A stretch of 20,000 nucleotides of DNA. Origin: an uncultured virus (IMG/VR IMGVR_UViG_3300031419_000541) (lineage: Duplodnaviria; Heunggongvirae; Uroviricota; Caudoviricetes). The DNA is taken from IMG/VR virus record IMGVR_UViG_3300031419_000541; one strand, given 5' to 3'. The notes under the pieces are model-generated. The model ran no database searches. It had not been told where the DNA came from and saw only the letters and a program-made list of their open reading frames with translations. Shown here piece after piece: positions 1 through 16,887 of this stretch (its first letter is position 1; every line of letters starts with the position of its first letter). The position numbers and the translations under genes are program-made.

Positions 1-891
1 AATATTTTTAAGTTTAGCAAGGGTAGTTGCACTGCATTCATTAAAAATAGGAATGTAATCTTTTTTATATCCCTGAAAATCCTGCAATATACTCAATATT
101 TGCCAGTCAGAAGGATTATTCTGCTTCATATATGTGTTAAATGCTTCAATGACGTACTGATTATAATGACTACTTCTGTGATGAATAAATGTTTCAAGTA
201 AAGTTAGTCTACCATTAGAAATTTTAAATTCCGGTATATTACAAAAATATAATTCGCTTAATGCGTTGTAATATGAAGATGGTGCTTTCTCTATATCAAC
301 AAAATATTGATTAATGAGTTCAAAAAAAGCATCACGAACAGGATTGATATCATAAGCCTGATCCATTGAAATTGAAGTATGATAACTTGACATTTTTCCA
401 AGATTAAAATGTGTCAGCTTAGCGAATTGTTTAAAATCGTTAAGGTTATTTTCATTTAAAGCATTAATAATACCCAAAACAATAAAATCACAAGGATATT
501 GAAGCAAAAAAGAGTTTTGACATTTATTAAAATTAAAGAGATCCATAAGATAAGGTTTTTTACTATTAATTTCATTAAACGTTTTTATCTTTTCAGCAAC
601 ATGAGAGATATCAAAACTACTAAATTCATTATAATTATTAACCAAAAAAGAAAATGGATGATATTCATCAGGTAATCCATTTGAAAAAGTGTGTTCATAT
701 TTGTTCATATGATCGATAATTTGATACTTGATATTGATATCAACATTATGATCACTATATAAAAAAATGAAGAAATTATGATAATGAATATTTCGCATGA
801 ATAAATCCAGATAATACTCAGGATGGTTATAAAAATTTTCAGGCTGATATAATTCTTTAATTGTATCAATATCTATTGAAATGGGATCCAT
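1..891 (-). CDS. Hypothetical protein, 3'-truncated by the window edge (>=297 aa; MDPISIDIDTIKELYQPENFYNHPEYYLDLF...); probable paralog of 12985-14115
   Basis: Not in the ORF track because it has no stop inside the window. Manual translation of the minus strand from ATG at 891 is open down to base 1. An AGGA Shine-Dalgarno overlaps the TAG stop of the upstream gene (TAG-GAAAAATT-ATG). Confidence 0.85.
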   Translation of the reverse strand, partial: MDPISIDIDTIKELYQPENFYNHPEYYLDLFMRNIHYHNFFIFLYSDHNVDINIKYQIIDHMNKYEHTFSNGLPDEYHPFSFLVNNYNEFSSFDISHVAEKIKTFNEINSKKPYLMDLFNFNKCQNSFLLQYPCDFIVLGIINALNENNLNDFKQFAKLTHFNLGKMSSYHTSISMDQAYDINPVRDAFFELINQYFVDIEKAPSSYYNALSELYFCNIPEFKISNGRLTLLETFIHHRSSHYNQYVIEAFNTYMKQNNPSDWQILSILQDFQGYKKDYIPIFNECSATTLAKLKNI

Positions 892-899
892 AATTTTTC

Positions 900-2663
900 C
901 TATAATCGATTAATGTTTTTTGATGGAATAATGCTTTTTTGAGTCGCTGCACTCAGAATAAATTTTTGATAAGAACTGAGTGTTGCAGGTTGAATGTAAT
1001 CCAGACCTTCTGTGATTTCTTTGTTATATACTTCCTGAATAGCAGTTAAATAAATATTATCAGGTATGGAAACTGAAAAATGTTCATTAAGAGATTTATT
1101 AAAAGTTAGAATAAAATCTGCATATCCCTGATAATACATTTCGTGCAGATCTATTTCACCAGAATCAAGATAAGTATTCTTAATAAAAGCGGGTTCATAC
1201 AAGACCTTATTCAACTCTTCAATGATATCATGAGTATTATTATTTTTAATGGCCTTAATCAGTAAGTTTTTATCCTGCAACAGAGCAATGGCTTTTTTAT
1301 CAATTTTGGCCATATTAAAGAATAATAAAGAAAGTATTTCAGAAGGAAATTCACAAATGTTGTTTAATTTTTCATAGGGTAAAAAATAATCGTTTAAATT
1401 ATCAGACTCATAAAATTCATTAGATGTAAAAAGTGGTTTAATAAAATCAGGAATATATTTAGAGTTCATGACTATATCCGTGGTAATATATTTATGGATA
1501 AAGTTTTCCTCTGGATAATAATTGTTATGCGAAAGAATATTTGCATATTTGAAATCCATAGCAAGCATTAAAGAAATTAATTGATAATTCTCATGAACAT
1601 TAGAATAACGCTGAATTAAATTGAAATCATTTGATTGAGAAATTTTAATTTTATTGTCTGTATTAAATAAAGATAATAATGTATGCATAACTGAAAGCTG
1701 TATTTGCAGATGTTCTTCATCATAGGTTTTTCTGAAAAAACTATTTTTATCTGTAAAAATATCTGTTGTTTTATAAATATCATAATTGATAACTTGTTTT
1801 GCTATATCCAGTTTAATAAATTGTAAGAAAGTATCTGCATTTAAATTGAGCGATGTATTCAAAAAAGCTGCCAAAGGAAATTTTGAAAGGGTTTCTTTAT
1901 TTTTCAGAAAAGGCTTAATAAGGGTCTGCATGGTATTCAGAGAGTAGGGTGTAATATTTAATTTTTTCAGACCTTCTGATAAATGTTCCAAAATGTCAGA
2001 TGATTGGCTATTTTTTAAAAGTTTAGAATAAAATTTATATCCTGAGAGCTTGTTGTTATTAAAAAAATCAGCAGGGAAAGGCACATTAAATTCAATGTCA
2101 ACCGGCCGTGATTCCGAAAAATTAATGCGTTTACTGATTGAATTAAGAACAGTGCCGTACTCTTTTTCTGTTTTTTTAGAATCAAACAAATTACATCCAT
2201 TGACAAAACTAGTCATAAGTTGTTCAGGCGTTTCCGATTTAAAAAGCAAGCCTTGTTTGTTGATAAAATTAAGCATTGTAATATTGGCATACAGAATGCA
2301 TGTACTTAAAAAAGTAGATTTTTTTGTAGTAAGCAAATCAACATTATTTTGCAAAGAAAATCCAGGATTTTTATCTATGATTTTATTGAGTACAAAATTA
2401 ATTTGATCTTCAGTGATAGATGGATTTTTAGCCATTGCAGACAAAATCATTTTTTCATGTTTTTCTGAAAAAAGTGGATGATCAATTAAAAAAGAAATGT
2501 TTTCGCTAAAAAAAAGTTCAAAGCTTTTTTTGAGAAATCTGGAATATGCGACTGGTTGTTTTTCTAAGAATAGAGAAACGGATTTTTTACCATTGACATT
2601 AAAAGGCTTTTTGAAAATATTTTTTAGTTTTTCGGATTCTTGATCTTCTTGTGATAACGACAT
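900..2663 (-). CDS. Large hypothetical protein (~587 aa) with C-terminal R-L signature (...QKFILSAATQKSIIPSKNINRL)
   Basis: Long ORF. Start moved from 2726 to ATG 2663 (MSLSQED) because of a strong SD (ACAGGAGAG) and an extended -10 TGGTATAAT lying inside the ORF-track N-terminal extension. Confidence 0.85.
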   Translation of the reverse strand: MSLSQEDQESEKLKNIFKKPFNVNGKKSVSLFLEKQPVAYSRFLKKSFELFFSENISFLIDHPLFSEKHEKMILSAMAKNPSITEDQINFVLNKIIDKNPGFSLQNNVDLLTTKKSTFLSTCILYANITMLNFINKQGLLFKSETPEQLMTSFVNGCNLFDSKKTEKEYGTVLNSISKRINFSESRPVDIEFNVPFPADFFNNNKLSGYKFYSKLLKNSQSSDILEHLSEGLKKLNITPYSLNTMQTLIKPFLKNKETLSKFPLAAFLNTSLNLNADTFLQFIKLDIAKQVINYDIYKTTDIFTDKNSFFRKTYDEEHLQIQLSVMHTLLSLFNTDNKIKISQSNDFNLIQRYSNVHENYQLISLMLAMDFKYANILSHNNYYPEENFIHKYITTDIVMNSKYIPDFIKPLFTSNEFYESDNLNDYFLPYEKLNNICEFPSEILSLLFFNMAKIDKKAIALLQDKNLLIKAIKNNNTHDIIEELNKVLYEPAFIKNTYLDSGEIDLHEMYYQGYADFILTFNKSLNEHFSVSIPDNIYLTAIQEVYNKEITEGLDYIQPATLSSYQKFILSAATQKSIIPSKNINRL

Positions 2664-2685
2664 GTTTCTCTCCTGTATTTTAATG

Positions 2686-2694
2686 ATTATACCA
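2686..2694 (-). promoter_or_regulatory. Extended -10 promoter element (TGGTATAAT) for the 900-2663 gene
   Basis: Exact TGnTATAAT match about 20 nt upstream of the ATG. Confidence 0.55.
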
Positions 2695-2735
2695 TATTCG
2701 AGCATAAAGAGAATAAAAAGGGCCACAAAAAATAT

Positions 2736-2763
2736 TTGACTTTTAATTTTTAATACGTATTAT
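2736..2763 (+). promoter_or_regulatory. sigma70-like promoter TTGACT-N16-TATTAT driving the structured leader and the 3003 gene
   Basis: Near-consensus -35/-10. The same TTGACT hexamer recurs at 5128 and 7020 upstream of genes of the same module. Confidence 0.55.
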
Positions 2764-2795
2764 GAAATATTCAATTGGAGCTTCTCCTGTCGAAT

Positions 2796-2883
2796 ATAAA
2801 CATTTTATGGCGTTAATGAAGTTACTTCTATATGTATGTTAAAATATGAAGACCCACTTTATTGCTTTCCATGAAATGTTTAT
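2796..2883 (+). ncRNA. Putative structured RNA element, copy 1 (nested three-stem hairpin)
   Basis: Outer 15-bp stem ATAAACATTTTATGG/CCATGAAATGTTTAT (1 G-U), middle stem AATGAAGT/ACTTTATT, inner CTTC/GAAG. Shares AAGTTACTTCT, GTATG and CACTTT-TTGCTTTCCA with copy 2. Confidence 0.6.
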
Positions 2884-2899
2884 CCCTTAAAATTATCTA

Positions 2900-2973
2900 A
2901 ATAACCTGGTTTACATAAAGTTACTTCTGAAAGTATGAATATTAAGAAACACTTTGTTGCTTTCCAGGCTGTT
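2900..2973 (+). ncRNA. Putative structured RNA element, copy 2
   Basis: Outer stem AATAACCTGG/CCAGGCTGTT (1 G-U, 1 mismatch), middle stem ATAAAGT/ACTTTGT, inner TTCT/AGAA. Same conserved motifs as copy 1 but different stem sequences. Confidence 0.6.
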
Positions 2974-3002
2974 TTTGTGCAAATTTAACGAGAGGTGAAG
3001 GA

Positions 3003-5069
3003 ATGAAAGACGCAATTTTAATTGAGAATAGCTTTATCCGTGTAAATGTATCAGAAAACAATGCTCCTGCAGCTTCTATTGAAGATCTGGGAACAGTGCT
3101 TTCGAATCTGGCATGGCTTGGCTATATTCCTTCATCTGATCTGATGTCTGTTTTATCTGCTTTATCTTCTTCTGAGCTTAATTTATTCTGGTTGCATGCT
3201 AAAAATGTATTTGCTAACCATTTTGAAGAAGGAATGGATGCTCATAACGGTGTTGTATACAAAAATTTTCCATCAGAGGTGATTAACAAAAGTCATGCAG
3301 AATACTGGATTGCTCAGATTTTTATTTATTTGGGTATTCCTTCTGACGTTTTTGCAGAACCTGTAAAAGAACGTGAGGTATTGAACGTTGATTTAAATAC
3401 GCTTAAAGTTCTGAAAAGAGCTAAAGAATCAACGCTTATGGATATTTTCACATATTATCATTCTCGTAAAGTGTCGTTAACGCCTGCCCAGTTAGAAACG
3501 CTGCCTTATTTGATTAAAGAACTGGCTTTATCCCACATAAGTGTCAGTGATTTTGATTTTAAAATGAATGGTGTGCATGGTGCAATAGCCGCATATAAAG
3601 CAAATATTTCAGTACGCGCTGAAACAGCAACAGATATCCTGCGTATTGCAATTGTGCTTTCGGGCAATAAAAGCAATATCAACCAAAAGATTACAAAATT
3701 CAAATTTAAACGTGCAGAACGAAAATTCTTGCTTACCATGCTTTGTGAGTTATTCAATTATGAAGAAGATATTGCAGCACGCAGAGAAACCTTTAAGGCA
3801 TTATTTCGTGCATTAAAACCAGGTGATTATGCATGGGCGAAATCTGTATCAGTAATTTATGATACACTTTATCAGAATAAGCTACGCTCTTTTAATGGTC
3901 AGGTGGACCTTGCAAAAACCCAAAATAATGTATTTGACTTATTAAAAAAACGTCCTGGTGTTTTCATGCGCCGTTTTCATGAGTTTTATGGTGTAAATAA
4001 AACAGAAGCAGTAAAAAATCTGGTAATTATTTTACCTCAACTGACGGTTTTCCAGTTATTAAAAATAAAAAAATATGTTGAAAACATCAATAATAATGAC
4101 TTTATTGTTGCAAAAGCAAAATCATCCTGGAACCATGCGAAAATTCTGGATAATACAAAAGTTAAATTTGATTCGGAGCATATCAAAACAATAGTTAATG
4201 CTATTAATTCTGTGTTGAAAGAAAAACTTGAATTATATCTGCCAGAAGGAGTTATTGCAGGACAAGGTCTTAATGATTTAAAATTACCGTCCAACGATCA
4301 GGAGCTTTCTATTGGGCGTGGAACTGTTGTCGAACTTCCTGAGCAAATTAAAGTTTTACGTTCTGCAACATACTGGACTGATAAAAACAGGGAACATGTT
4401 GGCAACTTCTATTTTGATAACAGCTGGAATCTCGTCCATGAGGAAGGTATAGATAAAGATCTTGTTGTATGCTGGGATCACAATGACGACAATAAATCAG
4501 TAGGGCTTTTCTCCGGCGATCCTTCTATTGTTAATAATGAAAACTCGGTTGCCACTCAGTTTATCGACATTAATCTTGACGAAGCAGAGAAGCAGGGATT
4601 CAAATATGCATTATGGAATGTATTGAGCTTTAATGATATTAAATTTAATGATGCCGAAAAAGCATTTGGTTGTCTTCAATTTCTTGAAAATCCAGAAAAA
4701 GGAAGCTTATTTGAACCATCGAAAGCAGATATTAATCTGAGCCTTAAAACTAATGGTACAAATAAATGTCTGGTTCTTATTGATATAAAGGAAAGAAAAA
4801 TTATTTATCTGGATATGGCATTTCCTAAAATGTCGGTGCAAAGTGCTGCGAACAATATCAAGCGTATACGAGATTTTATACCTGCATTGTTTGAACAGCT
4901 TTCTTTGATTCCAAGCATTTTTGATTTACTAGAAAATGCACCAAAAGGTACTTTGCCATTTGTTGTCAGTGATAAAGAAACAGCAATAAAAGGCAAAGCT
5001 TATGTATTCAAACAACAAAATCCAGAAAATGAGGTTGAGAATCTCGATTTGCAGGTATTTTTAAATTAA
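3003..5069 (+). CDS. Large (688 aa) protein: helical N-terminal/middle region plus C-terminal TerD-like domain
   Basis: SD GAGGTG. Motifs LLKKRPGVFMRRF, FSGDP...ATQFIDINL, YALWNVLSFNDIKF and LVLIDIKERKIIYLD recall the large TerD-domain stress proteins (recognised from memory, not searched). Confidence 0.65.
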   Translation: MKDAILIENSFIRVNVSENNAPAASIEDLGTVLSNLAWLGYIPSSDLMSVLSALSSSELNLFWLHAKNVFANHFEEGMDAHNGVVYKNFPSEVINKSHAEYWIAQIFIYLGIPSDVFAEPVKEREVLNVDLNTLKVLKRAKESTLMDIFTYYHSRKVSLTPAQLETLPYLIKELALSHISVSDFDFKMNGVHGAIAAYKANISVRAETATDILRIAIVLSGNKSNINQKITKFKFKRAERKFLLTMLCELFNYEEDIAARRETFKALFRALKPGDYAWAKSVSVIYDTLYQNKLRSFNGQVDLAKTQNNVFDLLKKRPGVFMRRFHEFYGVNKTEAVKNLVIILPQLTVFQLLKIKKYVENINNNDFIVAKAKSSWNHAKILDNTKVKFDSEHIKTIVNAINSVLKEKLELYLPEGVIAGQGLNDLKLPSNDQELSIGRGTVVELPEQIKVLRSATYWTDKNREHVGNFYFDNSWNLVHEEGIDKDLVVCWDHNDDNKSVGLFSGDPSIVNNENSVATQFIDINLDEAEKQGFKYALWNVLSFNDIKFNDAEKAFGCLQFLENPEKGSLFEPSKADINLSLKTNGTNKCLVLIDIKERKIIYLDMAFPKMSVQSAANNIKRIRDFIPALFEQLSLIPSIFDLLENAPKGTLPFVVSDKETAIKGKAYVFKQQNPENEVENLDLQVFLN

Positions 5070-5083
5070 TCGAGACATTTTTT

Positions 5084-5108
5084 AAAGAGAGCTACGGCTC
5101 TCTTTTTT
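5084..5108 (+). terminator. Rho-independent terminator
   Basis: AAAGAGAGC-TACG-GCTCTCTTT followed by more T's; c(UACG)g UNCG tetraloop; 14 nt after the stop. Confidence 0.85.
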
Positions 5109-5127
5109 GTTTTATATAATAAACAAA

Positions 5128-5156
5128 TTGACTTATTGTATTTAATGCAATAAGAT
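5128..5156 (+). promoter_or_regulatory. sigma70-like promoter TTGACT-N17-TAAGAT
   Basis: Canonical spacing; directly upstream of SD GAGGA and ATG 5184. Confidence 0.65.
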
Positions 5157-5183
5157 ATCACTAAACTGCAGAGGATAAATATT

Positions 5184-6227
5184 ATGAATATCGAAAATTT
5201 ATCGGAAGATATGATTTTAAAAACCCCGCTCACTCAGCCTGAAAAAATTTTTACAGGTTCAGATGCTGAATTAAAGAAAATTTATAAGAAACTATCTTTA
5301 CTCTGGCATCCAGATAAGCAGGTTGATGGTAAAAATACTAATGCGATTTTTACACATATACATGATCTTTATCAGTCAGCATTGACTAAATCCAAAAAAG
5401 GAACACTTGGAACAAACCTTAATGCGTTAGATATTACTTCTGTAGATGGAAAGAATTTTATTTTTCGTTATCAAAAATCCAAAAGCTTTGAACTGGGTGA
5501 ATATTATATCGCAAAAGAATTTGTGGTATGGGCATTTAAAAATGATTTTATTAATGAGGTAAAAGATAGCCTCAAAAATCTATCAAGTATTGTTTATCAA
5601 AGCGATAAAATGAAAAGTGCTTTCGAAAAATCATTGCCTGTTATCTACAAGCAGATAGAAACGGCTGATCGTTTTCTTGTAGTGATTAAAAAACCAAAAG
5701 AATTTTTGAATTTAGCAGATGTGTTGGCTCATTACAAAAAAATGCCTGCAAAGCATGTTGCATGGATATTAAGTCGTTTGTATAACATGGCTTGTTTTTT
5801 GAATTATAATCAGATTATGCATGGTGGAATTAACCTGGATAACTGCTTTATTAATCCTGAAACACATGAAATTTTGCTGGCTGGCGGGTGGTGGTATTCA
5901 AAGAAAGATGGCGAAAAACTGTCTATGTTATCAAGAGAAGCTTATGATATTGCACCGGTCAGTATGCTTAATTCAAAAAAAGCAGAAATGCTTCTTGATC
6001 TGCATTTAATAAAAAAATTAGGCAGAACATTGTTGGGAGATGTTATCGGTGACAACCTTCTTTCTGATAAAGAAATTCCTGTAAAAATGACAGAATGGTT
6101 AAGAGACGGCAATCAGGATAATGCCGTAAAACAATATACCGAGTGGTATGATCGTGTACTGACAGAAAGTTTTGGTGAAAGAAAATTTGTTGAAATGAAA
6201 ATCAAAAGTCAGGACTTATATCAATAA
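5184..6227 (+). CDS. N-terminal J-domain (DnaJ-like, HPD) fused to a degenerate protein-kinase-like domain
   Basis: ELKKIYKKLSLLWHPDKQ is J-domain helix II plus HPD. HVAWILSRLYNMACFLNYNQIMHGGINLDNCFI matches the kinase alphaE/catalytic loop, with the catalytic Asp replaced; LLAGGWW sits in place of DFG. Confidence 0.75.
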   Translation: MNIENLSEDMILKTPLTQPEKIFTGSDAELKKIYKKLSLLWHPDKQVDGKNTNAIFTHIHDLYQSALTKSKKGTLGTNLNALDITSVDGKNFIFRYQKSKSFELGEYYIAKEFVVWAFKNDFINEVKDSLKNLSSIVYQSDKMKSAFEKSLPVIYKQIETADRFLVVIKKPKEFLNLADVLAHYKKMPAKHVAWILSRLYNMACFLNYNQIMHGGINLDNCFINPETHEILLAGGWWYSKKDGEKLSMLSREAYDIAPVSMLNSKKAEMLLDLHLIKKLGRTLLGDVIGDNLLSDKEIPVKMTEWLRDGNQDNAVKQYTEWYDRVLTESFGERKFVEMKIKSQDLYQ

Positions 6228-6295
6228 TTTTTGGTTTACCATTGTTAGCAATAAATTGTGTGTTATTATATAGGTATATCAAGGGGAAAATATTT

Positions 6296-6928
6296 ATGAA
6301 TAACACACTATTAAAATCAATAATCGAATCTGTTAAGCTTGAAGGTAATAATGTTACTGATACAACTCATAAACCAATGGCTGACATCAGAACTGAAATG
6401 CAAAAATCATTAATGAAACAATTCAATGAAAATTTTAATGAAGCTGAACTTGTAGAAGCTTATAAAGCAACAATGTTTGAAAGTGCTCATGCTGTGATAC
6501 CGTTAGTTCTGCATGCAATTCAGGCGGTTCACCAAAAAAAATTCATGGGTTCTGACAAAACGATGAATGAAAAAGAGGCTTACCACTTCAACGCAATAAT
6601 AGCTGATAGTATCATTAATGGTGGTGCAGTCTCAAAAGAGGAAGCGTCAAAAAGAGCAGATTTAGCTTTCTATAATACTGCAACATATAACCATCAGGCA
6701 AAAGAAATGTTTATCTCTGCGGTTATTGTAGCAAACAAAGGTGATATCAGTCTATATCCAGGCAATAAACGTGACTTACCTCTTTATGATAAACTGACCA
6801 GTTATGCAGATAGGCTGTCTAAAAAATCAGAATTTAACGCTCCTTCATTAGATAGTGTAACTGAAAAATTATCTGCTCAACAATCGAATATAGTCCAGCC
6901 AGTAAAAACGCCAAAAGTCAGTATGTAA
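6296..6928 (+). CDS. Hypothetical helical protein (~210 aa), ends ...QPVKTPKVSM
   Basis: ORF. Start moved to ATG 6296 (MNNTLL) after SD AAGGGG; upstream TGTTATTAT extended -10-like element; own terminator downstream. Confidence 0.8.
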   Translation: MNNTLLKSIIESVKLEGNNVTDTTHKPMADIRTEMQKSLMKQFNENFNEAELVEAYKATMFESAHAVIPLVLHAIQAVHQKKFMGSDKTMNEKEAYHFNAIIADSIINGGAVSKEEASKRADLAFYNTATYNHQAKEMFISAVIVANKGDISLYPGNKRDLPLYDKLTSYADRLSKKSEFNAPSLDSVTEKLSAQQSNIVQPVKTPKVSM

Positions 6929-6958
6929 TAATGTGATGTAAAAATAGATCAACCAGAG

Positions 6959-6985
6959 AAGACAGAATTTCGATTCTGTCTTTTT
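6959..6985 (+). terminator. Rho-independent terminator
   Basis: AAGACAGAAT-TTCG-ATTCTGTCTT plus T tract. Confidence 0.85.
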
Positions 6986-7019
6986 GTTTAGTGAAATAAA
7001 CAAAAATGTGTTTTCTTAT

Positions 7020-7048
7020 TTGACTTTTTACAATAAGTAGAGTATTGT
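7020..7048 (+). promoter_or_regulatory. sigma70-like promoter TTGACT-N17-TATTGT
   Basis: Near-consensus with canonical spacing, upstream of the vWA gene. Confidence 0.55.
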
Positions 7049-7093
7049 TAGTGTATAAAGTAAACTAACTAATAATTATTGAGGAAAACAACT

Positions 7094-8008
7094 ATGGGCG
7101 GATATAACTGGAATCCACAAGACTGGGCATCTCATAAAAAAACAGCCTCCACGAAAAGCCAGACGCAGACCTTTACACAAAGAGGAATTCATCCTGATTT
7201 GGATCCTAAAAAAATTGTTATGCGTGAATCATGTGATTCAGATGTCAATCCTTTCTCTACACCGATTGTGATTGGACTGGATGTGACGGGGTCAATGGGT
7301 ATACATGCTGACAATATGCAAAAACAAGGTCTGGGTGTGCTTGTTGAAGGTATCCTTGAACGTAAACCGGTAACTGATCCACATATTATGTTTTTAGGCA
7401 TAGGTGACGTTCATTCAGACCAAGCTCCAATTCAGGCTACGCAATTTGAAGCAGATATTCGTATTGTTAATGAGTTGCAAAAAATTTATCTTGAAGGAAA
7501 TGGTGGTGGCAACGGCTCTGAATCTTATGAGCTGGCATGGTATTTTTCAGCATTGCATACCAAAATTGACAGCCTGTCTAATCGTAATAAAAAAGGCTAT
7601 CTGTTCACGATTGGTGACGAAAGTCCTGCAAAAATCATTGAACAGCAGTATATTAAAAAATTCTTTGGCAAAGAAGAAGCCTCCACTTACTCTTCAAAAG
7701 AACTTTTGGATATGGTCTCTCAAAAATACCATGTTTATCATGTTGTTGTTGAAGAAGGTTCTCATGCCCGTTCTAATCTGGATAAAGTTCTAAAAGACTG
7801 GCGTGAATTGTTGGGTGAACGTACTCTGCGACTGAGTAAAGGAAGCAGTCTTTCAGAAGTCATTATCAGCGCTATTGAAATTAATGAAGGTGCTGATGTT
7901 GAAAAAGTAATTAACTCATGGAGTGGAGAAACGGCATTGGTTGTGCGCCATGCGGTTAATCAGCTTGCAAACAAAACAAATACCGGAGCGGGTGTAGTTA
8001 AGTTCTGA
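7094..8008 (+). CDS. von Willebrand factor A (vWA/MIDAS) domain protein
   Basis: SD GAGG at 7081 with ATG 7094 (MGGYNW). IVIGLDVTGSM is the MIDAS DxTxS; also GIGD, EGNGGGNGSESY and GYLFTIGDE (distal MIDAS Asp). Confidence 0.85.
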   Translation: MGGYNWNPQDWASHKKTASTKSQTQTFTQRGIHPDLDPKKIVMRESCDSDVNPFSTPIVIGLDVTGSMGIHADNMQKQGLGVLVEGILERKPVTDPHIMFLGIGDVHSDQAPIQATQFEADIRIVNELQKIYLEGNGGGNGSESYELAWYFSALHTKIDSLSNRNKKGYLFTIGDESPAKIIEQQYIKKFFGKEEASTYSSKELLDMVSQKYHVYHVVVEEGSHARSNLDKVLKDWRELLGERTLRLSKGSSLSEVIISAIEINEGADVEKVINSWSGETALVVRHAVNQLANKTNTGAGVVKF

Positions 8009-8013
8009 TAAAT

Positions 8014-8039
8014 AATAAGGAGACTTCGGTCTCCTTATT
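8014..8039 (+). other. Strong intergenic c(UUCG)g hairpin between the vWA and purA-like genes (weak terminator or RNA stabiliser)
   Basis: AATAAGGAGAC-TTCG-GTCTCCTTATT, an 11-bp perfect stem with no long U tract. Confidence 0.65.
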
Positions 8040-8057
8040 CTATAGGGAGTATCAATT

Positions 8058-9287
8058 ATGAAAGCAAAAGTGGTTATCGGTGCAGGATTTGGAGATGAAG
8101 GTAAAGGATTGTTTACTGATTATTTAGCATCCCTTAATGAGAAAACAGTTGTCGTCCGATTCAATGGTGGGGCTCAGGCAGGTCATACAGTAACAACACC
8201 AGACGGAAAAAGACACGTTTTCGGACATTTCACGGCAAACAGCTTTTTAGAAAATAATAAAGGTTATTTGTCCAGGCATTTTCTGGTAAACCCCTTCGTG
8301 TATTTGTCAGAAAGAGAAAAATTAATTTCTTTGGGTACAAGCCCAACAACAGCTTGTCATGATGACTGTTTTCTAACCACGCCTTACGATATGTTGATTA
8401 ATCAATGGCTTGAGCAGTCTAGAAATTCCTCCCGTCATGGTTCATGTGGATTAGGTATTAATGAAACTGTAAATCGTTCGGAGAATGAAAAGTTACCTCT
8501 TTATATTAAAGACTGTAATTCGGAATCTGTTTTGAGAGAAAAAGTCATGCAAATCCGTGAATTCTTTAAAAAAAGGATTTCGGTTCTCGGTCTTGATAAA
8601 TACTTACAAGAAAATGAAGTGCTTTTATCTGACGATCTTATGGAAAATTTTATTGACGCAATTGCAGAAATGAAAAGTACCTTAATCACAGGCGTTAATA
8701 ATTTCAACCACTCATACTTTGCAGGTTATGAAATTATTTTTGAAGGTGCTCAGGGTCTTATGCTTGATCAGATTATGGGTGATTTCCCCCATGTGACACG
8801 TTCAAATACAGGTCTGAAGAATGTTGTAGAAATTAGTCTGGAAAATGGTATTACAGATTTGGATGTGCTGTATGCTACGCGCTGTTATAAAACCCGACAT
8901 GGCGCTGGCGTATTGCAGCATGAGTTGCAGGAAAAGCCTTATCCTATGATTGAAGATAAAACCAATATTCCCAATGAGTTTCAGGGAAGTCTTCGTTTTG
9001 CCTATCTGGATATCGATGAATTAACGTCTTTTATTGATAAAGATATTCAGTCTGTAAAACCACAAACAGATGGTATGCTGACGATTAATAAATTTATGGG
9101 TATTTCATGTCTTGATCAAAGCAATATTATAAAATATTATGAAAACGGAAGGCTTCGAGAGATACCAAATGACCTTTTTGGAAAAGGAATGGAAAAATAT
9201 GGTTTTGGTATTTATGAAAGTTTCGGTCCAAGCCGTGAAACTATTCAACATCTGAAAGTGACACCAAAGATTAAAATTAAAATGTGA
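8058..9287 (+). CDS. Adenylosuccinate synthetase (PurA) family protein, divergent
   Basis: GAGFGDEGKG, VVRFNGGAQAGHTV, HGSCGLGI, IFEGAQGLMLD, FPHVTRSNT, TRHGAG, SFGP; SD GGGAG. The aspartate-binding TTGRxRR loop is not conserved, so the symbol purA is withheld. Confidence 0.9.
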   Translation: MKAKVVIGAGFGDEGKGLFTDYLASLNEKTVVVRFNGGAQAGHTVTTPDGKRHVFGHFTANSFLENNKGYLSRHFLVNPFVYLSEREKLISLGTSPTTACHDDCFLTTPYDMLINQWLEQSRNSSRHGSCGLGINETVNRSENEKLPLYIKDCNSESVLREKVMQIREFFKKRISVLGLDKYLQENEVLLSDDLMENFIDAIAEMKSTLITGVNNFNHSYFAGYEIIFEGAQGLMLDQIMGDFPHVTRSNTGLKNVVEISLENGITDLDVLYATRCYKTRHGAGVLQHELQEKPYPMIEDKTNIPNEFQGSLRFAYLDIDELTSFIDKDIQSVKPQTDGMLTINKFMGISCLDQSNIIKYYENGRLREIPNDLFGKGMEKYGFGIYESFGPSRETIQHLKVTPKIKIKM

Positions 9288-9332
9288 GATATGTTTCAAT
9301 GAAAGGATAAGTTTTGCAAATTTAATTGATAA

Positions 9333-9358
9333 AAAAGGTGACTATATAGTCACCTTTT
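9333..9358. terminator. Bidirectional terminator between the convergent purA-like and WGR genes
   Basis: Perfect 26-bp palindrome AAAAGGTGACTATATAGTCACCTTTT. Confidence 0.8.
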
Positions 9359-9378
9359 AAATTTGAAATAATTATAAA

Positions 9379-10407
9379 TTAACTATAGCTTTCGATCTCA
9401 TAACCTTCTTTAAACTTGGATAGAAACTTGTCTTTGAAAAATTTAATAGCTTTTTGATGACTATCAAATGACTTTGTTTCCTTTTTAAGTTTTTTTCCAA
9501 TACCGCCGTACTCAACATCCACACTATTGCCGGATAAAGTAAGGCTATATTCTTTATTAGACGTTTCATAGATATACACAAGCTTCACTTTGTTAAACTC
9601 AGAAAGTTGTTTGTATGTGTTTACTTTATCGATAAATTTAAGCAATCCCCTAGCTTCTGTTTCATATTCACTGGGGGTATCAAATTCATTTTTAATAAAA
9701 AAGTTATTAAGGATTGAGCGAATCATGTTAAAGAATTCAGAATGTTTAAAAACTTTTTCAGGATTTTCACCAAAATTCATATCAAAAGATTCAAGCTTTT
9801 CTTTAGCATTAAGATCCGAGTCTTTCCAATACTCATTCAGATCTTCCTGTTGTTCATGAAGTTCAGGAATTTTAAATCCTTTAAAATCAGGAAGGCAACT
9901 AAAAAGGCTGGTTAACGTATAAATAATATCTGAATCGTCATACGCTTGTCCTGCGACTAAACACAGTCTGTTCTCGTTTTCATATCGCACAAGGGATAGT
10001 TCTGTATCATAGGCATCAATATTAGAACAAATTGTTGCTTTGTTATCCTGTTGAGCAAGAATTACAAAAGGATAATTATCCATTTCTTGAACTGTACTTA
10101 AAATATGATGGGATGTAAACAAATCCTGATTAAATTTATCAAAAACAGAATCAATGTCCTGACTATCACCAAAAAGATACTCAACCGTCATGCAATCAGA
10201 GCCATTTAATGCAGAAACTTCAAAAGATAAATCATCATCATTATAAAGCTGTTTTAACTCTATGACATCTCCGGTATTCTCAGCAAGAGGTTTCATAGAA
10301 TACATAGCTATTTTTTTGAAAGAAAAATCAAGTGTATTCGTGTTTAATAAAATAGACTGAATAACGCCTTGAGAATTTTTAGTTTGACTGTGCAGAACAA
10401 AACTCAT
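9379..10407 (-). CDS. Protein with C-terminal WGR-like domain and acidic N-terminal region
   Basis: SD AGAGG. C-terminal SNKEYSLTLSGNSVDVEYGGIGKKLKKETKSFDSHQKAIKFFKDKFLSKFKEGY follows the WGR-domain pattern (WGR read as YGG; ...K.K.GY). Confidence 0.75.
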   Translation of the reverse strand: MSFVLHSQTKNSQGVIQSILLNTNTLDFSFKKIAMYSMKPLAENTGDVIELKQLYNDDDLSFEVSALNGSDCMTVEYLFGDSQDIDSVFDKFNQDLFTSHHILSTVQEMDNYPFVILAQQDNKATICSNIDAYDTELSLVRYENENRLCLVAGQAYDDSDIIYTLTSLFSCLPDFKGFKIPELHEQQEDLNEYWKDSDLNAKEKLESFDMNFGENPEKVFKHSEFFNMIRSILNNFFIKNEFDTPSEYETEARGLLKFIDKVNTYKQLSEFNKVKLVYIYETSNKEYSLTLSGNSVDVEYGGIGKKLKKETKSFDSHQKAIKFFKDKFLSKFKEGYEIESYS

Positions 10408-10435
10408 TGTATTTTCCTCTTTTAGAAAGTAGTTA

Positions 10436-10464
10436 ATTGTACAATAATAGCGTTAATTCTGCAA
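10436..10464 (-). promoter_or_regulatory. sigma70-like promoter TTGCAG-N17-TACAAT for the WGR gene
   Basis: Canonical spacing, immediately after the upstream gene's stop codon. Confidence 0.5.
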
Positions 10465-11673
10465 TTAAATTCTTTTTATTATAAATTTTTGAGGCGAATG
10501 AATAATTTTTGATAGTTTATTACGGTTAACTTTGTTTTGTATCTGAATTAGAAATTCATGGTATGCATACATCTCTGGATCATTAGCAAATTCATAGAGA
10601 TTATTTTCAGAAAAATCCAGTCCGTTAACATAAAGAGCATTAATAATATGAGAAAATTTATTTTCAGGAATACCTCGTGAATAACTTTTATGGATATGTT
10701 GAATAAGCACATGAAGCCAGTCTGAAACAATCTGCACATCGTTTTTTCTGCAATAATTAATAAATGCGAAACGTTGATTATTAAACTGTAGAATAAAGAA
10801 AGAAGCTGTGTCAGCCCAATATTCAGAAATGACTTTTTTTATGTCAATATTGTTATCCAGCAGCCATTTTATTGTTTCTTTACTGTGGAGAAAAGGACGA
10901 ATGTTTTGGAAATTTTCTTCTGCAACATTTTTAAATTCAGGTGTGTTTATATTCAGATTAAAATGTTCACAATAAGATTTTATTTGTTTCATTGTAAATA
11001 ATGCATTTTTATTGTCGAAAAGAAATTCCTTATGAAATTTTTGGACGTCTTCAATGAATCCATGTTCAATAAAAAGCTCAATAATTTGTATACGTTTTGA
11101 AAAATATTTAGTAGGGCTAATAAGATATTTAGTTAATTCTTTCATATTAACATTGTAGTTGGTTATAATTTTTTTAATGTTATTGATATGATCACGTCGC
11201 ACAGCTTGTGCCGGATAAGGAAAATTATACGTTTTATCAACAAAAACAGCAGGGTAATTCTTCTCTTTTACAAGATAGTCCGCAATGTCACTTCTTCCCT
11301 TGATAAAGAGACAGGAAAGCAGGTCTGGTTTATCAACATCATAAATTTCATCCATGATGATAGTGCGGAAATGAGGTTTATCCAGATAATCAATATAAGG
11401 TTTAAAGTCTTTTTTAAAGCCTGCTATTTCAATAATAAGATCTATAAAACTCAATTCTGAATAATAAGGAAAATAGCTTTCCATGACATGTATAAAAAAA
11501 TCAAGATCACGATTTTTTAAAACAAAATCCAGATCACAAAGTAATTGACTGCCAACAAAATTGTCATTTTCATCAATTGTCATGGAACCCTGATAGTTAC
11601 TAATGCTTTTAAAATTAGCATAAAAAGTACTGTTATTATTTTTAAAATAATGTTGAGAAATAGAAATTAACAA
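10465..11673 (-). CDS. Hypothetical helical/degenerate ankyrin-like protein (402 aa), C-terminal R-I signature; paralog of 11757-12983
   Basis: TTG start with SD AGGGGG; ankyrin-like segments (GRSDIADYLV, IKWLLDNNIDI); ends QKFIIKRI. Confidence 0.8.
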   Translation of the reverse strand: MLISISQHYFKNNNSTFYANFKSISNYQGSMTIDENDNFVGSQLLCDLDFVLKNRDLDFFIHVMESYFPYYSELSFIDLIIEIAGFKKDFKPYIDYLDKPHFRTIIMDEIYDVDKPDLLSCLFIKGRSDIADYLVKEKNYPAVFVDKTYNFPYPAQAVRRDHINNIKKIITNYNVNMKELTKYLISPTKYFSKRIQIIELFIEHGFIEDVQKFHKEFLFDNKNALFTMKQIKSYCEHFNLNINTPEFKNVAEENFQNIRPFLHSKETIKWLLDNNIDIKKVISEYWADTASFFILQFNNQRFAFINYCRKNDVQIVSDWLHVLIQHIHKSYSRGIPENKFSHIINALYVNGLDFSENNLYEFANDPEMYAYHEFLIQIQNKVNRNKLSKIIHSPQKFIIKRI

Positions 11674-11698
11674 AATAGCCCCCTATTAATATTTTGCC

Positions 11699-11727
11699 AG
11701 TATAACCTTTAAAGGGGAGATTTTCAA
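11699..11727 (-). promoter_or_regulatory. sigma70-like promoter TTGAAA-N17-TATACT
   Basis: Near-consensus with canonical spacing, upstream of the TTG start at 11673. Confidence 0.6.
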
Positions 11728-11756
11728 TAATATTTATGAATATTAAATATTAAGTA

Positions 11757-12983
11757 TTAAATTCTTGGATTGTTAAGCTTTGCTGATTGTATATTAAGTT
11801 GGTTCCTTAATATGTTTTGCTGAATATGCACATCAACTTCACCAAGCTGTTCTGTGGTTAAAAGTTTATAACTTTTACGCTTAATAAATTCTTCAAATTC
11901 TTTTACGGTATGTTTAAAAATGTCAAATCCCATAAATTTCATGAAAGGGTAAAGATGACTAAAATCACTCAGACCTCGTGGATGCTTATAAGAGTAATCA
12001 GAAATAAAATCTGAGATAACTCTATCGGTATATGCAGGAGCTACTTTAACATTAAAGCCATGCTCTTCAATTGCTTCGAAAATATGATTTCCCTCAGAAG
12101 TAATTATTTTTTTAAGAAATGCTGACCAGAAAGGACCATGACTATTTGAATCAAAAAGCTCCTGATAAACAACACCATTATTATGAAAGAAATTAATGTG
12201 TTCTTTTGACTTAAGTAACACGTAACTGTTGAATGTACCATCAATAATTTTGTCATGTACGTAATTGGTATCAAAATCATATTGAAAAAAAGCATTGAGT
12301 TTGCATAAACTTTCACAATTTAAAGCACGAGTTGCTGTATTGAAAAAAATATATTCAATGTTTTCTTCTTCGGTCAGGTTTTTCGGAAGCATTTGATATA
12401 ATTTTATGGCGTCCTCAATATGATTATTAGAGAAACCAAAGTAAAATGCCTTATTATTCTGAATATGATAGCCTGAATCGAGTAATTCTTTAATATTATC
12501 ATAATCATGATATGAAAGAAGATCATTAAGATAACGACTGTCTTTAGATAAAATTTTAGGAATACCATATTTATCAGTCAGATAATTAGCAATGTCAGAC
12601 AAATTAAACATAAATAATTCAGACAATATATCATTTTTTTCATTATGAAAATCACTGGTCTTGAAACCATTATTAAAAAGATAATCAAAATAAGGCGAAA
12701 AATCGTCACGTAAGTAGGCAATACTTAAAAACATATTTTTGTTAAAGTTAAGATCAGGACAGGTTAACATATATTTTTTATGCAAATCGACAATATTAGT
12801 AAATGTTTTAAAGTCACAATGATGAATTGCAAAATCAAAGGTTTCAGCCAGTTTTTTAATATGGAATTTGGGATTTTTTGTATATTCTTTTTTATAGGTG
12901 TCAAAATCTCTGAAATAACCAGACATTGTTTCTTTATTTTTTGAATCCACTTCAAGTTGAATCAGGTTATATTCTTTAACCAT
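11757..12983 (-). CDS. Hypothetical helical/degenerate ankyrin-like protein (408 aa), C-terminal R-I signature
   Basis: Long ORF; ATG 1 nt after the upstream stop (TAA-T-ATG, coupling); DYDNIKELLDSGYHI is ankyrin-like; ends AKLNNPRI. Confidence 0.8.
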   Translation of the reverse strand: MVKEYNLIQLEVDSKNKETMSGYFRDFDTYKKEYTKNPKFHIKKLAETFDFAIHHCDFKTFTNIVDLHKKYMLTCPDLNFNKNMFLSIAYLRDDFSPYFDYLFNNGFKTSDFHNEKNDILSELFMFNLSDIANYLTDKYGIPKILSKDSRYLNDLLSYHDYDNIKELLDSGYHIQNNKAFYFGFSNNHIEDAIKLYQMLPKNLTEEENIEYIFFNTATRALNCESLCKLNAFFQYDFDTNYVHDKIIDGTFNSYVLLKSKEHINFFHNNGVVYQELFDSNSHGPFWSAFLKKIITSEGNHIFEAIEEHGFNVKVAPAYTDRVISDFISDYSYKHPRGLSDFSHLYPFMKFMGFDIFKHTVKEFEEFIKRKSYKLLTTEQLGEVDVHIQQNILRNQLNIQSAKLNNPRI

Positions 12984-12984
12984 A

Positions 12985-14115: not shown

Positions 14116-14208
14116 AATATTGTCCATAAAATAATATTCATTATACATGATAATGCATAAAACAATTATTTAAAAGTGTAATGTTTTTTTTAAAAAATCT
14201 TTTTTTTA

Positions 14209-14217
14209 TGCTATAAT
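14209..14217 (+). promoter_or_regulatory. Extended -10 promoter (TGCTATAAT)
   Basis: Exact TGnTATAAT upstream of SD AGGGAG and ATG 14243. Confidence 0.55.
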
Positions 14218-14242
14218 GTCATTATTGAATAGGGAGAGAACT

Positions 14243-15508: not shown

Positions 15509-15734
15509 AGTTGTGTTTTTTCGGTCTTTCAAATAACATTGTTTTATCAATGATAACCGTTTTTTTTCGTCCCATGTTTAATCTTTTTCGCATATCAGGA
15601 TCACGAATTTCCAGTTTTATTTGATCCTGATTTGCTTCCACATAATCAGGAAACATAGAAAGTTGTTCTTCAAGAAAAAAACCTTCAAATTGATTCCCTT
15701 CGAATAAAAAATGTATCTGACATCCAATTTCCAT
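15498..15734 (-). CDS. Small hypothetical protein (78 aa)
   Basis: Fills otherwise empty space; protein-like composition; weak SD (AAGAG); overlaps the convergent gene end by 11 nt. Confidence 0.55.
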   Translation of the reverse strand: MEIGCQIHFLFEGNQFEGFFLEEQLSMFPDYVEANQDQIKLEIRDPDMRKRLNMGRKKTVIIDKTMLFERPKKHNFKF

Positions 15735-15816
15735 AAAATAGACTCTTTTAAAATTGTTTTTATCTGTAATAATAACCTATTATAGCTTATTGGTTTGGAA
15801 TAAAAAGGTATATTAA

Positions 15817-16770: not shown

Positions 16771-16887
16771 AAAATTTGCTATAGAAAAAATATGATGTTT
16801 ATATTTAAATAACAACAGGAATGTTGTTCTGAAATATCAAGCCTTTAAGTTATTACTCCCAAGTGAGGTAACGAATAGAGGTAATAT

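What the first reader, a model, noticed from the sequence alone, without database searches (positions are those of the whole stretch)
2767..2973. Tandem pair of covarying structured RNA elements in the ~240-nt leader of the TerD-like gene
Seen in sequence: two ~75-90 nt units (2796-2883, 2900-2973) share AAGTTACTTCT..GTATG..CACTTT(A/G)TTGCTTTCCA, while their closing stems differ in sequence yet both pair (ATAAACATTTTATGG/CCATGAAATGTTTAT versus AATAACCTGG/CCAGGCTGTT). Each folds as outer stem, asymmetric internal loop (3' side GCTTT conserved), AAGT/ACTT stem, small internal loop, then CTTC/GAAG or TTCT/AGAA hairpin. A further hairpin (ATATTC..GGAG-CTT-CTCC..GAATAT, 2767-2797) sits at the predicted transcript start. 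Conserved loops with compensatory stems indicate RNA structure rather than simple duplication. Inference: a protein-binding RNA (autoregulatory operator, or a partner RNA analogous to the Y RNAs encoded beside Ro60/TROVE genes) or a tandem riboswitch-like element for the downstream 688-aa protein. I cannot assign it to a named Rfam family.
Basis: partly seen in the sequence, partly recalled or inferred. Interest (0 to 1): 0.8.

Follow-up and report, generated by a model that had tools for sequence, protein, structure and literature searches.

The report
New partner RNA of TerD-like protein
The two repeated elements are copies of a previously undescribed, widely conserved small structured RNA that always travels with one uncharacterised protein gene in large phages and many bacteria, much as Y RNAs travel with Ro60, so it probably forms a new RNA-protein particle.

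Summary
Window 2796-2883 and 2900-2975 are two copies of a ~75-nt RNA: stem P1, an asymmetric internal loop (GGC-YAU / RCUUU-CC), stem P2, then an open loop starting with the near-invariant U(C/A)CUUCUA. No Rfam 15 family matches it. A covariance model built here finds 1-4 tandem copies beside homologues of the 688-aa protein in 114 of 134 loci, from bacteria of several phyla, metagenomes, IMG/VR contigs and the Xanthomonas jumbo phages XacN1 and Xoo-sp13. All 16 modelled pairs covary (89.6% paired against 41-51% in slid controls). Copies lie upstream (64 loci), downstream (47) or both (3). Four units are on the opposite strand. Some sit inside tRNA arrays 0-3 nt from tRNAs, and 20 of 101 arrays end in their own terminator. 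One unit carries a YrlA-like tRNA module. In 151 actinomycete genomes the RNA was found only in 5 of the 8 that have the protein family, always next to that gene. The protein (PHROG 33734) has a TerD-fold C-terminus. Its helical N-terminal domain is most like Ro60 in structure (Z 8.6, weak) but not in sequence profile. Best reading: a dedicated, Y-RNA-like partner RNA. A riboswitch is unlikely. The inner CTTC/GAAG hairpin is not supported. Expression and binding are untested.

The parts
2736..2763 (+). sigma-70-like promoter (TTGACT, 16 nt, TATTAT) that would start transcription near 2770
   Evidence: 10 of 12 matches; 4 sites found against 2.7 +/- 1.8 expected, so weak alone. The same arrangement, TTGACT-17-TATACT, precedes the units in L039. 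TTGACA-17-TAATAT precedes the first unit in L027.
2767..2797 (+). 5'-terminal hairpin at the predicted transcript start, probably a 5'-end stabiliser (inferred)
   Evidence: -7.8 kcal/mol, z -3.4. L039 keeps the outer stem ATATTC/GAATAT with a different inner stem. A ~96%-identical variant strain shows no change here. It is not part of the family model.
2796..2883 (+). RNA unit 1: P1 2796-2810/2869-2883, internal loop, P2 2813-2821/2856-2864, loop starting UUACUUCU
   Evidence: R2 gives 71.7 bits, E 1e-12. Fold z -5.6. The variant strain has 0 substitutions in these 88 nt, although the 451 nt laid differ at 18 places.
2900..2975 (+). RNA unit 2: P1 about 2904-2909/2964-2969, P2 2915-2921/2951-2957, same conserved loops; P1 is followed by a U run
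   Evidence: R2 gives 59.8 bits, E 3e-10. Fold z is only -1.2. The variant strain changes 8 positions inside it. These include 2920 (breaks a P2 pair), 2924 (a C that is 146 of 146 in the family) and 2964 (P1 G-C becomes G-U). This copy may be under weaker constraint.
2988..3002 (+). ribosome-binding region (GAGAGGTGAAGGA) just before the start codon
   Evidence: Read from the sequence. It lies only 28 nt after unit 2, so in this window the gene is most simply transcribed through the units.
3003..5069 (+). 688-aa protein P0001: helical N-terminal domain (about 1-430), TerD-fold domain (about 448-630) and a small C-terminal part; the presumed RNA partner
   Evidence: PHROG 33734, E 4e-114, full length. 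No Pfam family. NF041916 at 100.5 bits against a cut-off of 600. Model pLDDT 90. TerD structures Z 13.0 and 12.0. Ro60 structures Z 8.6 and 7.8 for residues 144-433.

Best explanation
The two units are tandem copies of a new, widespread class of small structured RNA. This RNA is the dedicated partner of the protein encoded beside it (PHROG 33734: a helical domain plus a TerD-fold domain). In this window, probably part of a large phage genome, a promoter at 2736-2763 drives one transcript. It carries a 5' hairpin, unit 1, unit 2 and then the protein's coding region. I infer that the protein binds the conserved face of each unit: the GGC-YAU / RCUUU-CC internal loop and the single-stranded U(C/A)CUUCUA. 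The two would then form an RNA-protein particle in the manner of Y RNA with Ro60. The variable loop would be a free module that in some relatives carries a stable hairpin or a tRNA-like domain. Where the units lie in the mRNA leader, as here, the same binding could also feed back on the protein's own synthesis. Shown: the fold, its conservation and covariation, the exclusive genetic linkage, and genomic layouts typical of free-standing stable RNAs. Inferred: transcription, release as a discrete RNA, binding by the protein, and any activity. The neighbourhood of tRNA, tmRNA, translation and RNA-repair genes hints at RNA surveillance or an RNA-level conflict role.
For: (1) Structure. On 146 units (144 distinct) 89.6% of cells pair against 41-51% when partners are slid. 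All 16 pairs change on both sides. Covariation is 0.829 against 0.06-0.19 slid, and no shuffle of 500 reaches it (the same on 45 units). The alignment was fitted to the model, which favours it. G-U pairs are common (30 of 144 at pair 28/217), and reverse-strand scores are near zero, so the fold is in the RNA rather than the DNA.
(2) Conserved single-stranded letters. U35, C37, U38, U39 and U41 are 146 of 146; the GG/CC closing pairs are 141 and 133 of 144.
(3) Linkage. 114 of 134 loci carry a unit, and 93 of 103 with at least 400 nt on both sides.
(4) Whole-genome tests. Five genomes gave 3 hits, all beside a family gene. In 151 actinomycete genomes R2 hit 5, all among the 8 with an NF041916-type gene and each within about 300 nt of it; none of the other 143 was hit.
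(5) The link extends to paralogues of 20-24% identity in phages Weasels2, RpAliso and RcXuper.
(6) Not a leader. 64 loci have units upstream only, 47 downstream only, 3 both. Four genuine units are on the opposite strand (L002, L011, L014 twice). No gene family recurs after the RNA.
(7) Stable-RNA layout. Units lie 0-3 nt from same-strand tRNAs in L092, L068 and L095/L154, and 22 nt after a permuted tmRNA in L157. Terminator-like hairpins follow 20 of 101 arrays: 10 before the gene and 10 after it.
(8) Y-RNA parallel. The loop of L014 102-243(-) matches the tRNA-like part of Rfam YrlA (44.3 bits, E 3e-7, model 23-86 of 114). The top structural match of the N-terminal domain is Ro60 (9l5y_B Z 8.6, rmsd 4.7, 223 aligned; 2nvo_A Z 7.8, rmsd 5.7, 224 aligned), against about 90 aligned residues for the generic helical repeats listed beside them.
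Against: There is no evidence of transcription, of a discrete RNA species or of binding. No RNA run holds the stretch. The Ro60 likeness is weak. Z 8.6 is below the level the tool advises for helical repeats, Foldseek finds nothing, a profile-profile comparison with 14 TROVE proteins gives probability 0.04%, and no TROVE Pfam hit appears. Only 1 of 146 aligned units has the tRNA-like module, and its YrlA score is below Rfam's threshold of 69. In this window the units are only 28 nt from the start codon and have no terminator-like site, which fits a leader as well. 10 loci with at least 400 nt on both sides show no unit. Two of three true RING_SCO0854 genes examined had no hit. Loci from different collections overlap, so locus counts are not counts of independent lineages.
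Confidence: 0.6

Rival explanations
1. Purely cis-acting operator. The protein, or another factor, binds the units only within its own mRNA (5' or 3' UTR) to set translation or stability, and no free RNA or particle exists.
For: In the window and in most upstream arrays no terminator separates the units from the gene: 44 of 54 upstream arrays. Unit 2 ends 28 nt before the start codon. Downstream units in Actinobacteria begin 5-24 nt after the stop codon, so they are in the 3' UTR.
Against: Four opposite-strand units cannot be part of the mRNA. Some units lie inside tRNA arrays up to 2 kb from the gene (L092 975-1049). 10 upstream arrays end in terminators. One unit has a tRNA-like module.
Confidence: 0.15
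2. The RNA is a stable decoy, mimic or guide in its own right, for example presenting CUUCUA(A) like an anticodon loop or a pyrimidine-rich rRNA tail. The neighbouring protein only processes, protects or loads it.
For: The loop is invariant across phyla. Units are embedded among tRNA and tmRNA genes. A tRNA-like module occurs in L014. Translation and RNA-repair genes lie nearby in 7 of 22 loci scanned. That CUUCUAA equals a tRNA-Arg(UCU) anticodon loop is my own recollection, not a tool result.
Against: No target was identified. The invariant stretch is not closed into a 7-nt loop by any conserved stem. Strict linkage to one protein family suggests the letters are kept for that protein.
Confidence: 0.1
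3. Type III toxin-antitoxin-like pair. The tandem RNA units neutralise a toxic protein, with a terminator setting the RNA-to-protein ratio.
For: The order promoter, unit(s), intrinsic terminator, gene is seen in L004/L110, L030, L040, L041/L087 and L042. Copies are tandem (1-4). Distribution is patchy and phage-borne.
Against: Units within one array diverge: 80% mean column identity and different P1 stems in the window. In 47 loci the RNA lies only after the gene. No nuclease or ToxN-like fold was found, and there is no PADLOC hit.
Confidence: 0.08
4. Tandem riboswitch (ligand-sensing aptamers) controlling the downstream gene.
For: Conserved loop letters with covarying stems. Tandem copies. 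In L004 and L030 a terminator follows, and its 5' arm could pair with the unit's CCAUG loop (two cases only).
Against: The position is often 3' of the gene or on the opposite strand, or between tRNAs. Terminators are as frequent after downstream arrays, where nothing is left to control. No gene is consistently regulated.
Confidence: 0.04

Closest known systems
Ro60 (Rsr) with Y RNA / YrlA (Rfam RF02553, RF00019)
   Same: A small modular RNA is encoded next to, and only next to, one RNA-binding protein gene, in bacteria and phages, often in more than one copy. It has a conserved stem with an internal loop plus a variable module. One unit here carries the YrlA-type tRNA-like module. The best structural match of the protein's N-terminal domain is Ro60. 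Passages of PMC4201824 say that YrlA-like RNAs lie beside Ro60 genes in more than 250 bacteria and phages and contain a tRNA-like domain.
   Different: The conserved letters differ: GGC-YAU, UCCUUCUA and RCUUUCC here, against the GNCGAAN0-1G motif named in PMC4201824. The Rfam Y RNA models do not match the window. The protein has no TROVE signature in sequence and carries a TerD-fold domain where, as I recall, Ro60 has a vWA domain.
Type III toxin-antitoxin systems (ToxIN and relatives; features recalled)
   Same: Tandem RNA units precede a protein gene, in some loci with a terminator between them. Carriage is phage-related and patchy.
   Different: Units are longer, diverge within an array, and often lie after the gene. 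The protein is about 690 aa with a TerD fold and no nuclease signature.
TerD-family proteins and the NCBIfam family NF041916 (MXAN_6230/SCO0854 RING domain protein)
   Same: The C-terminal domain has the TerD fold (Z 13.0). Residues 293-624 align with positions 385-721 of NF041916. Intermediate paralogues, and one of three true members examined, also have the RNA beside them.
   Different: The score is far below the family cut-off (100.5 against 600 bits) and the RING part is not matched. No RNA partner turned up for TerD proteins in the papers searched.
Small stable RNAs inside phage tRNA clusters (phage T4 species 1 and 2 RNAs; recalled, not checked here)
   Same: Non-tRNA stable RNAs sit at tRNA-like spacing inside a phage tRNA array, as in L092 and L068.
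   Different: No sequence or structural relation was tested, and no partner protein is known to me for the T4 RNAs.

Membership tests
Y RNA / YrlA | Match to the Rfam models (RF02553 YrlA, RF00019 Y_RNA) | tested here: not met
   There is no hit in the window at gathering score or at E up to 10. Only the inserted module of L014 102-243(-) matches YrlA positions 23-86 at 44.3 bits, below the threshold of 69.
Y RNA / YrlA | Encoded beside a Ro60/Rsr (TROVE, PF05731) gene | tested here: inconclusive
   The neighbouring protein has no TROVE hit, and hhalign against 14 TROVE proteins gives 0.04%. Yet Ro60 structures are rank 1 and rank 4 for its N-terminal domain (Z 8.6 and 7.8, 223-224 residues aligned).
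Y RNA / YrlA | tRNA-like module | tested here: not met
   It is absent from both window units. It is present in 1 of 146 aligned units.
Riboswitch | Consistently in the 5' leader of the genes it controls | tested here: not met
   64 loci have units upstream only, 47 downstream only, 3 both. Four units are on the opposite strand and some lie between tRNAs. No gene recurs downstream.
Riboswitch | Binds a small-molecule ligand | not testable with these tools
   This needs in-line probing or binding assays.
Type III toxin-antitoxin | Near-identical short repeats directly upstream of an endoribonuclease toxin | tested here: not met
   The window units share 80% mean column identity and have different P1 stems. 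Position varies. The protein has a TerD fold and no PADLOC hit.
TerD domain | TerD beta-sandwich fold | tested here: met
   2qz7_B Z 13.0, rmsd 2.9, 158 residues aligned; 2kxt Z 12.0. Foldseek E 3e-5. No TerD family appears among the Pfam hits at E up to 0.001.
NF041916 RING_SCO0854 | Score over the curated cut-off, with the N-terminal RING part | tested here: not met
   100.5 bits against a cut-off of 600. Only profile positions 385-721 are matched.
PHROG 33734 (unknown function) | Full-length profile match | tested here: met
   E 4e-114, residues 7-687 on profile positions 8-763 of 764.

The most novel reading that the evidence does not exclude
This is a second, independent Ro60/Y-RNA-like system. 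A ring-like helical protein with a TerD domain uses a modular small RNA whose invariant CUUCUA(A) loop imitates a cellular RNA, such as a tRNA-Arg(UCU) anticodon loop or the pyrimidine tail of 16S rRNA. Its swappable outer module (hairpin or tRNA-like domain) recruits other factors. Large phages and bacteria would use the particle to survey, repair or shield translation RNAs during RNA-targeting conflict.
Probability: 0.12. Interest if true: 0.9.

Novelty: new variant of a known kind. Interest (0 to 1): 0.8.

Why it matters
This adds a well-supported structured RNA class with more than 200 examples. It spans Actinomycetota, Cyanobacteria, Proteobacteria, Myxococcota, Spirochaetota and large phages, and no Rfam 15 family covers it. 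It gives a first functional handle to a sizeable family of unknown proteins (PHROG 33734 and relatives of NF041916), and it suggests that a TerD-fold protein works with RNA. If the particle is confirmed, it would be a second example of the Ro60/Y RNA design. That would make it possible to ask what such particles do in bacteria and why large phages carry them among their tRNA genes. Cultured carriers exist: Mesorhizobium, Pararhizobium, Dactylosporangium, and phages of Rhodococcus, Rhodobacter and Ruegeria.

Tried and rejected
- Rfam 15: no family covers the units, neither in the window at gathering score or at E up to 10 nor in 16 related loci. The low-scoring microRNA, snoRNA and preQ1-II rows are chance.
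- Whole-genome searches of the window's own genome were impossible because none is held.
- Expression: no RNA holder is listed for the stretch. The one run guessed to be RNA (X20) and run X7 laid nothing.
- First model R1 (5 units) missed most relatives. It was replaced by R2.
- The inner hairpin CUUC/GAAG was dropped from the model.
- Conserved neighbour genes: all-against-all clustering of 1433 flanking ORFs gave no family in more than 7 loci, and those were all Dactylosporangium/Virgisporangium synteny. None included a window gene. The DnaJ-domain and adenylosuccinate-synthetase-like genes of the window are therefore not part of the module.
- TROVE homology by sequence was rejected. Foldseek on the N-terminal model gave nothing at E up to 0.001.
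- An idea that the loop pairs with the gene's own ribosome-binding site was dropped. The window's loop (UACUUCU) fits its GAAGGA less well than the family consensus would, and the sites in L027 and L004 do not match. This was by eye only.
- Literature: searches for TerD with RNA terms, SCO0854/MXAN_6230, TROVE with TerD, YrlA terms, and the loop motif or the PHROG number found no description of this RNA. PMC5938088 is not held. Supplements were not opened.
- The earlier-findings index returned nothing.

Full report
**1. What is in the window**

Between the divergent ORF 900-2726(-) and the 688-aa ORF 3003-5069(+) lie about 275 nt of non-coding DNA.

- The two units align at 80% mean column identity but have different closing stems.
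- Unit 1 folds far better than shuffles: -25.1 kcal/mol, z -5.6. Unit 2 does not: z -1.2.
- The small hairpin 2767-2797 has z -3.4.
- A sigma-70-like site at 2736-2763 would start transcription just before that hairpin. The scan is not significant alone (4 sites against 2.7 +/- 1.8 expected).
- Rfam 15 has nothing at gathering score in the whole window, and only chance-level rows at E up to 10.

**2. The downstream protein**

P0001 has no Pfam or PADLOC family. It matches PHROG 33734 (unknown function) over its full length, E 4e-114. It also matches the C-terminal two thirds of NCBIfam NF041916 (RING_SCO0854) at 100.5 bits, against a cut-off of 600.

- A confident model (pLDDT 90) shows a helical N-terminal part and a TerD-fold domain: 2qz7_B Z 13.0, 2kxt Z 12.0.
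- Folded alone (pLDDT 83.6), the N-terminal domain's best match among 48,161 chains is Ro60 of Thermus phage phiLo (Z 8.6, rmsd 4.7, 223 aligned). Deinococcus Rsr is at rank 4 (Z 7.8, rmsd 5.7, 224 aligned).
- The generic helical repeats listed beside them at similar Z align only about 90 residues.
- This is a hint, not proof. Foldseek sees nothing, the PDB sequence search is empty, and hhalign against 14 actinobacterial TROVE proteins gives probability 0.04%.

**3. The RNA is conserved next to distant homologues**

The protein has 76 relatives in the word-indexed search. I fetched 35 genome loci, 80 of 190 metagenome loci, 16 IMG/VR loci and two GenBank jumbo phages.

- Reading L027 showed three tandem units with the same conserved letters upstream of a 33%-identical homologue.
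- Regular expressions then found single units in Pararhizobium, Mesorhizobium, Agitococcus, Aquabacterium and a betaproteobacterial MAG. Their P2 letters change in step: AAAGU/ACUUU, GCGGU/ACCGC, GGGU/ACCC.
- A first model from 5 units (R1) found 45 hits at E up to 1, 44 of them on the gene's strand.
- The rebuilt model R2 found 148 hits in 100 sources and 23 in 16 further sources. It also found 43 hits in the 18 viral loci, every one of which has at least one.

**4. Structure and consensus**

For alignment A6 I gave R2 85 of the 117 sources held at that time: those with hits, leaving out exact duplicates. On its 146 units (144 distinct) the P1 and P2 pairs are 89.6% paired, against 41-51% when the 3' partner is slid. 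All 16 pairs show changes on both sides. The covariation score is 0.829 against 0.06-0.19, and no shuffle of 500 reaches it. The 45-unit alignment gives the same picture. These alignments are fitted to the model, which favours the structure, and one row (L074 1839-1916, minus strand) is a false hit.

The consensus, from 5' to 3':

- P1 ending in GG
- C-Y-A-U
- P2 (8 bp)
- U-(C/A)-C-U-U-C-U-A (five of these letters are 146 of 146)
- a variable stretch of about 15-100 nt that is A/U-rich, often with a hairpin closed by a stable tetraloop
- P2'
- R-C-U-U-U
- CC of P1'

The window's units carry the rarer A in the loop (7 of 146). This variant recurs in the phages Weasels2, RcXuper and RpAliso.

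**5. Linkage**

These counts cover 134 loci: the window, L001-L115 and L147-L164. The L074 false hit is dropped. L116-L146 and L165-L168 are not counted. Several loci are the same contig held in two collections.

| Measure | Count |
|---|---|
| Loci with a unit beside the gene | 114 of 134 |
| Same, among loci with at least 400 nt on both sides | 93 of 103 |
| Units upstream only / downstream only / both | 64 / 47 / 3 loci |
| Copy number 1 / 2 / 3 / 4 | 49 / 39 / 21 / 5 loci |
| Units on the gene's strand / opposite strand | 209 / 4 |

The opposite-strand units (L002, L011, two in L014) carry all conserved letters.

Whole-genome searches are specific:

- In five genomes (6-14 Mb) R2 gave three hits at E up to 0.01. 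One is at the L004 locus, one at the L030 locus, and one is 32 kb from L004.
- That third hit lies in front of a 744-aa paralogue, 23% identical to P0001 and scoring 356 bits on NF041916.
- In a sample of 151 actinomycete genomes, 8 have an NF041916-type gene.
- R2 hit 5 genomes at E up to 0.1. All are among those 8 and each hit lies within about 300 nt of the gene. None of the other 143 was hit.
- A locus-level search added a sixth genome (G141, 26 bits). It also gave a weak, divergent unit in front of one of three true RING_SCO0854 genes.

**6. Why it is not simply a leader**

- When the RNA lies after the gene, what follows varies, and is sometimes a gene on the other strand more than 1 kb away.
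- Clustering 1433 flanking ORFs found no shared neighbour beyond close relatives.
- Terminator-like hairpins with a U run follow 20 of 101 arrays, usually within a few nucleotides of P1. Ten are in upstream arrays and ten in downstream arrays.
- In several phage-like contigs the units are spaced like tRNAs inside same-strand tRNA arrays:
  - L092: tRNA-Glu 901-977, unit 975-1049, tRNA-Leu 1047-1131
  - L068: unit 2415-2489, tRNA-Gly 2489-2562, tRNA-Ile 2572-2645, unit 2647-2714
  - L095/L154: tRNA-Pro, then a unit 3 nt later
  - L157: a permuted tmRNA, then a unit 22 nt later
- Such a layout implies release as a discrete RNA by the tRNA-processing enzymes. This is an inference.
- The long loop of L014 102-243(-) matches the tRNA-like part of Rfam YrlA, the bacterial Y RNA (44.3 bits, E 3e-7, below the threshold of 69). 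The passages of PMC4201824 that I read describe exactly such a module in Y RNAs encoded beside Ro60 genes.

**7. The window in context**

The window is probably part of a large phage.

- Its ORFs are mostly unknown, and the few hits are phage families: PHROG 33734, 2971, 1211 and an endonuclease VII PHROG.
- Relatives sit in 170-480-kb viral contigs and in XacN1 (three units, L163 4453-4841, before ORF396) and Xoo-sp13 (two units, L164 4761-4913).
- The 52%-identical relative L039 has the same promoter, the same 5' hairpin (outer stem kept, inner stem different) and two units, the second degenerate.
- Contigs of a ~96%-identical strain show no change in unit 1 or in the 5' hairpin. They show eight changes in unit 2, three of them at conserved positions. 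Unit 1 looks like the constrained copy.

**8. Mechanism**

I commit to a partner-RNA reading (0.6). The protein binds the conserved internal loop and the single-stranded UCCUUCUA, and forms a particle whose variable loop is free for other contacts. In this window the units are also the mRNA leader, so feedback on the protein's synthesis is a natural second role.

What the particle does is open. The surroundings hint at RNA surveillance, repair or RNA-level conflict:

- tRNA and tmRNA genes;
- genes annotated nucleotidyltransferase or tRNA nucleotidyltransferase in four cultured phages;
- aminoacyl-tRNA synthetase, EF-Tu and PNKP-type genes in 7 of 22 loci scanned.

The rivals are a purely cis operator (0.15), a decoy or mimic RNA (0.10), a type III toxin-antitoxin-like pair (0.08) and a riboswitch (0.04).

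**9. Novelty**

No Rfam family matches. No paper turned up in six searches. The passages I read in PMC7159879 and PMC7824862 do not describe it, and the earlier-findings index holds nothing. I file it as a new variant of the Y-RNA/Ro60 kind. It is not a member: the RNA models, the conserved letters and the protein's sequence all fail the membership tests.

Noticed in passing
window 8058-9287 (+): An adenylosuccinate-synthetase-like gene hits PHROG 1211 ('2-aminooxy adenylosuccinate synthetase', E 2e-57). It hits NCBIfam PurZ only weakly (47.8 bits against a cut-off of 300). It could be a phage nucleotide-modification gene, but it is not conserved beside the RNA module.
   Followed up: partly
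window 1-20000: Most ORFs have no Pfam or PHROG family. The exceptions are a DnaJ-domain protein (5184-6227), a WGR-domain protein (9379-10407, minus strand) and an endonuclease-VII-like protein (18179-18943, minus strand). With 30% G+C this looks like part of a large phage.
   Followed up: partly
L014 102-243 (-): One unit carries, inside its variable loop, a permuted tRNA-like module (T arm, closed acceptor stem, D arm) that matches Rfam YrlA positions 23-86. The contig is only 2.4 kb, so whether a Ro60 gene is nearby is unknown.
   Followed up: partly
L092 5235-5588; L157 3385-3683; L150 9713-10062: tmRNA genes (standard and permuted) lie next to the module in phage-like contigs. Long same-strand tRNA arrays occur too, for example eight tRNAs in L044 97-1396.
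   Followed up: no
L159 9185-9272; L048 7692-7775; L114 3539-3613: ARAGORN calls a tRNA with anticodon CUA (labelled Pyl) and two tRNAs with odd anticodon loops ('aa', 'ttca'). They may be suppressor or frameshift tRNAs of large phages.
   Followed up: no
L166 4478-5467; L167 3898-4899; L163 2643-3506; L164 2424-3284: A gene annotated nucleotidyltransferase or tRNA nucleotidyltransferase lies within about 1.5 kb of the module in four cultured phages: RcXuper, RpAliso, XacN1 and Xoo-sp13.
   Followed up: no
L147, L149, L150, L159, L081, L161, L089: Translation and RNA-repair genes flank the module in 7 of 22 loci scanned: Met- and Phe-tRNA synthetase, EF-Tu, PNKP phosphatase, the 'Swiss Army Knife' HAD domain, the cREC receiver domain and YqeY. 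TerC (L048) and a PRTase (L072) were also seen.
   Followed up: no
L116 1559-3793 (-); L124/L132: Mesorhizobium sp. SP-1A and Dactylosporangium sp. NBC_01737 each carry a second, distant paralogue of the protein 32-54 kb from the first. The Mesorhizobium one has its own RNA unit, L116 3953-4030(-).
   Followed up: partly
window 1053-1135 (-): A weak R2 hit (23.4 bits, E 0.009) lies inside ORF 900-2726 and lacks the invariant loop letters. It is probably chance.
   Followed up: no
L004 5905-5935; L030 5896-5926: In the two alphaproteobacterial loci the 5' arm of the terminator after the unit is complementary to the unit's CCAUG loop, so an alternative pairing is possible. Only two cases were seen, so it was not pursued.
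   Followed up: no
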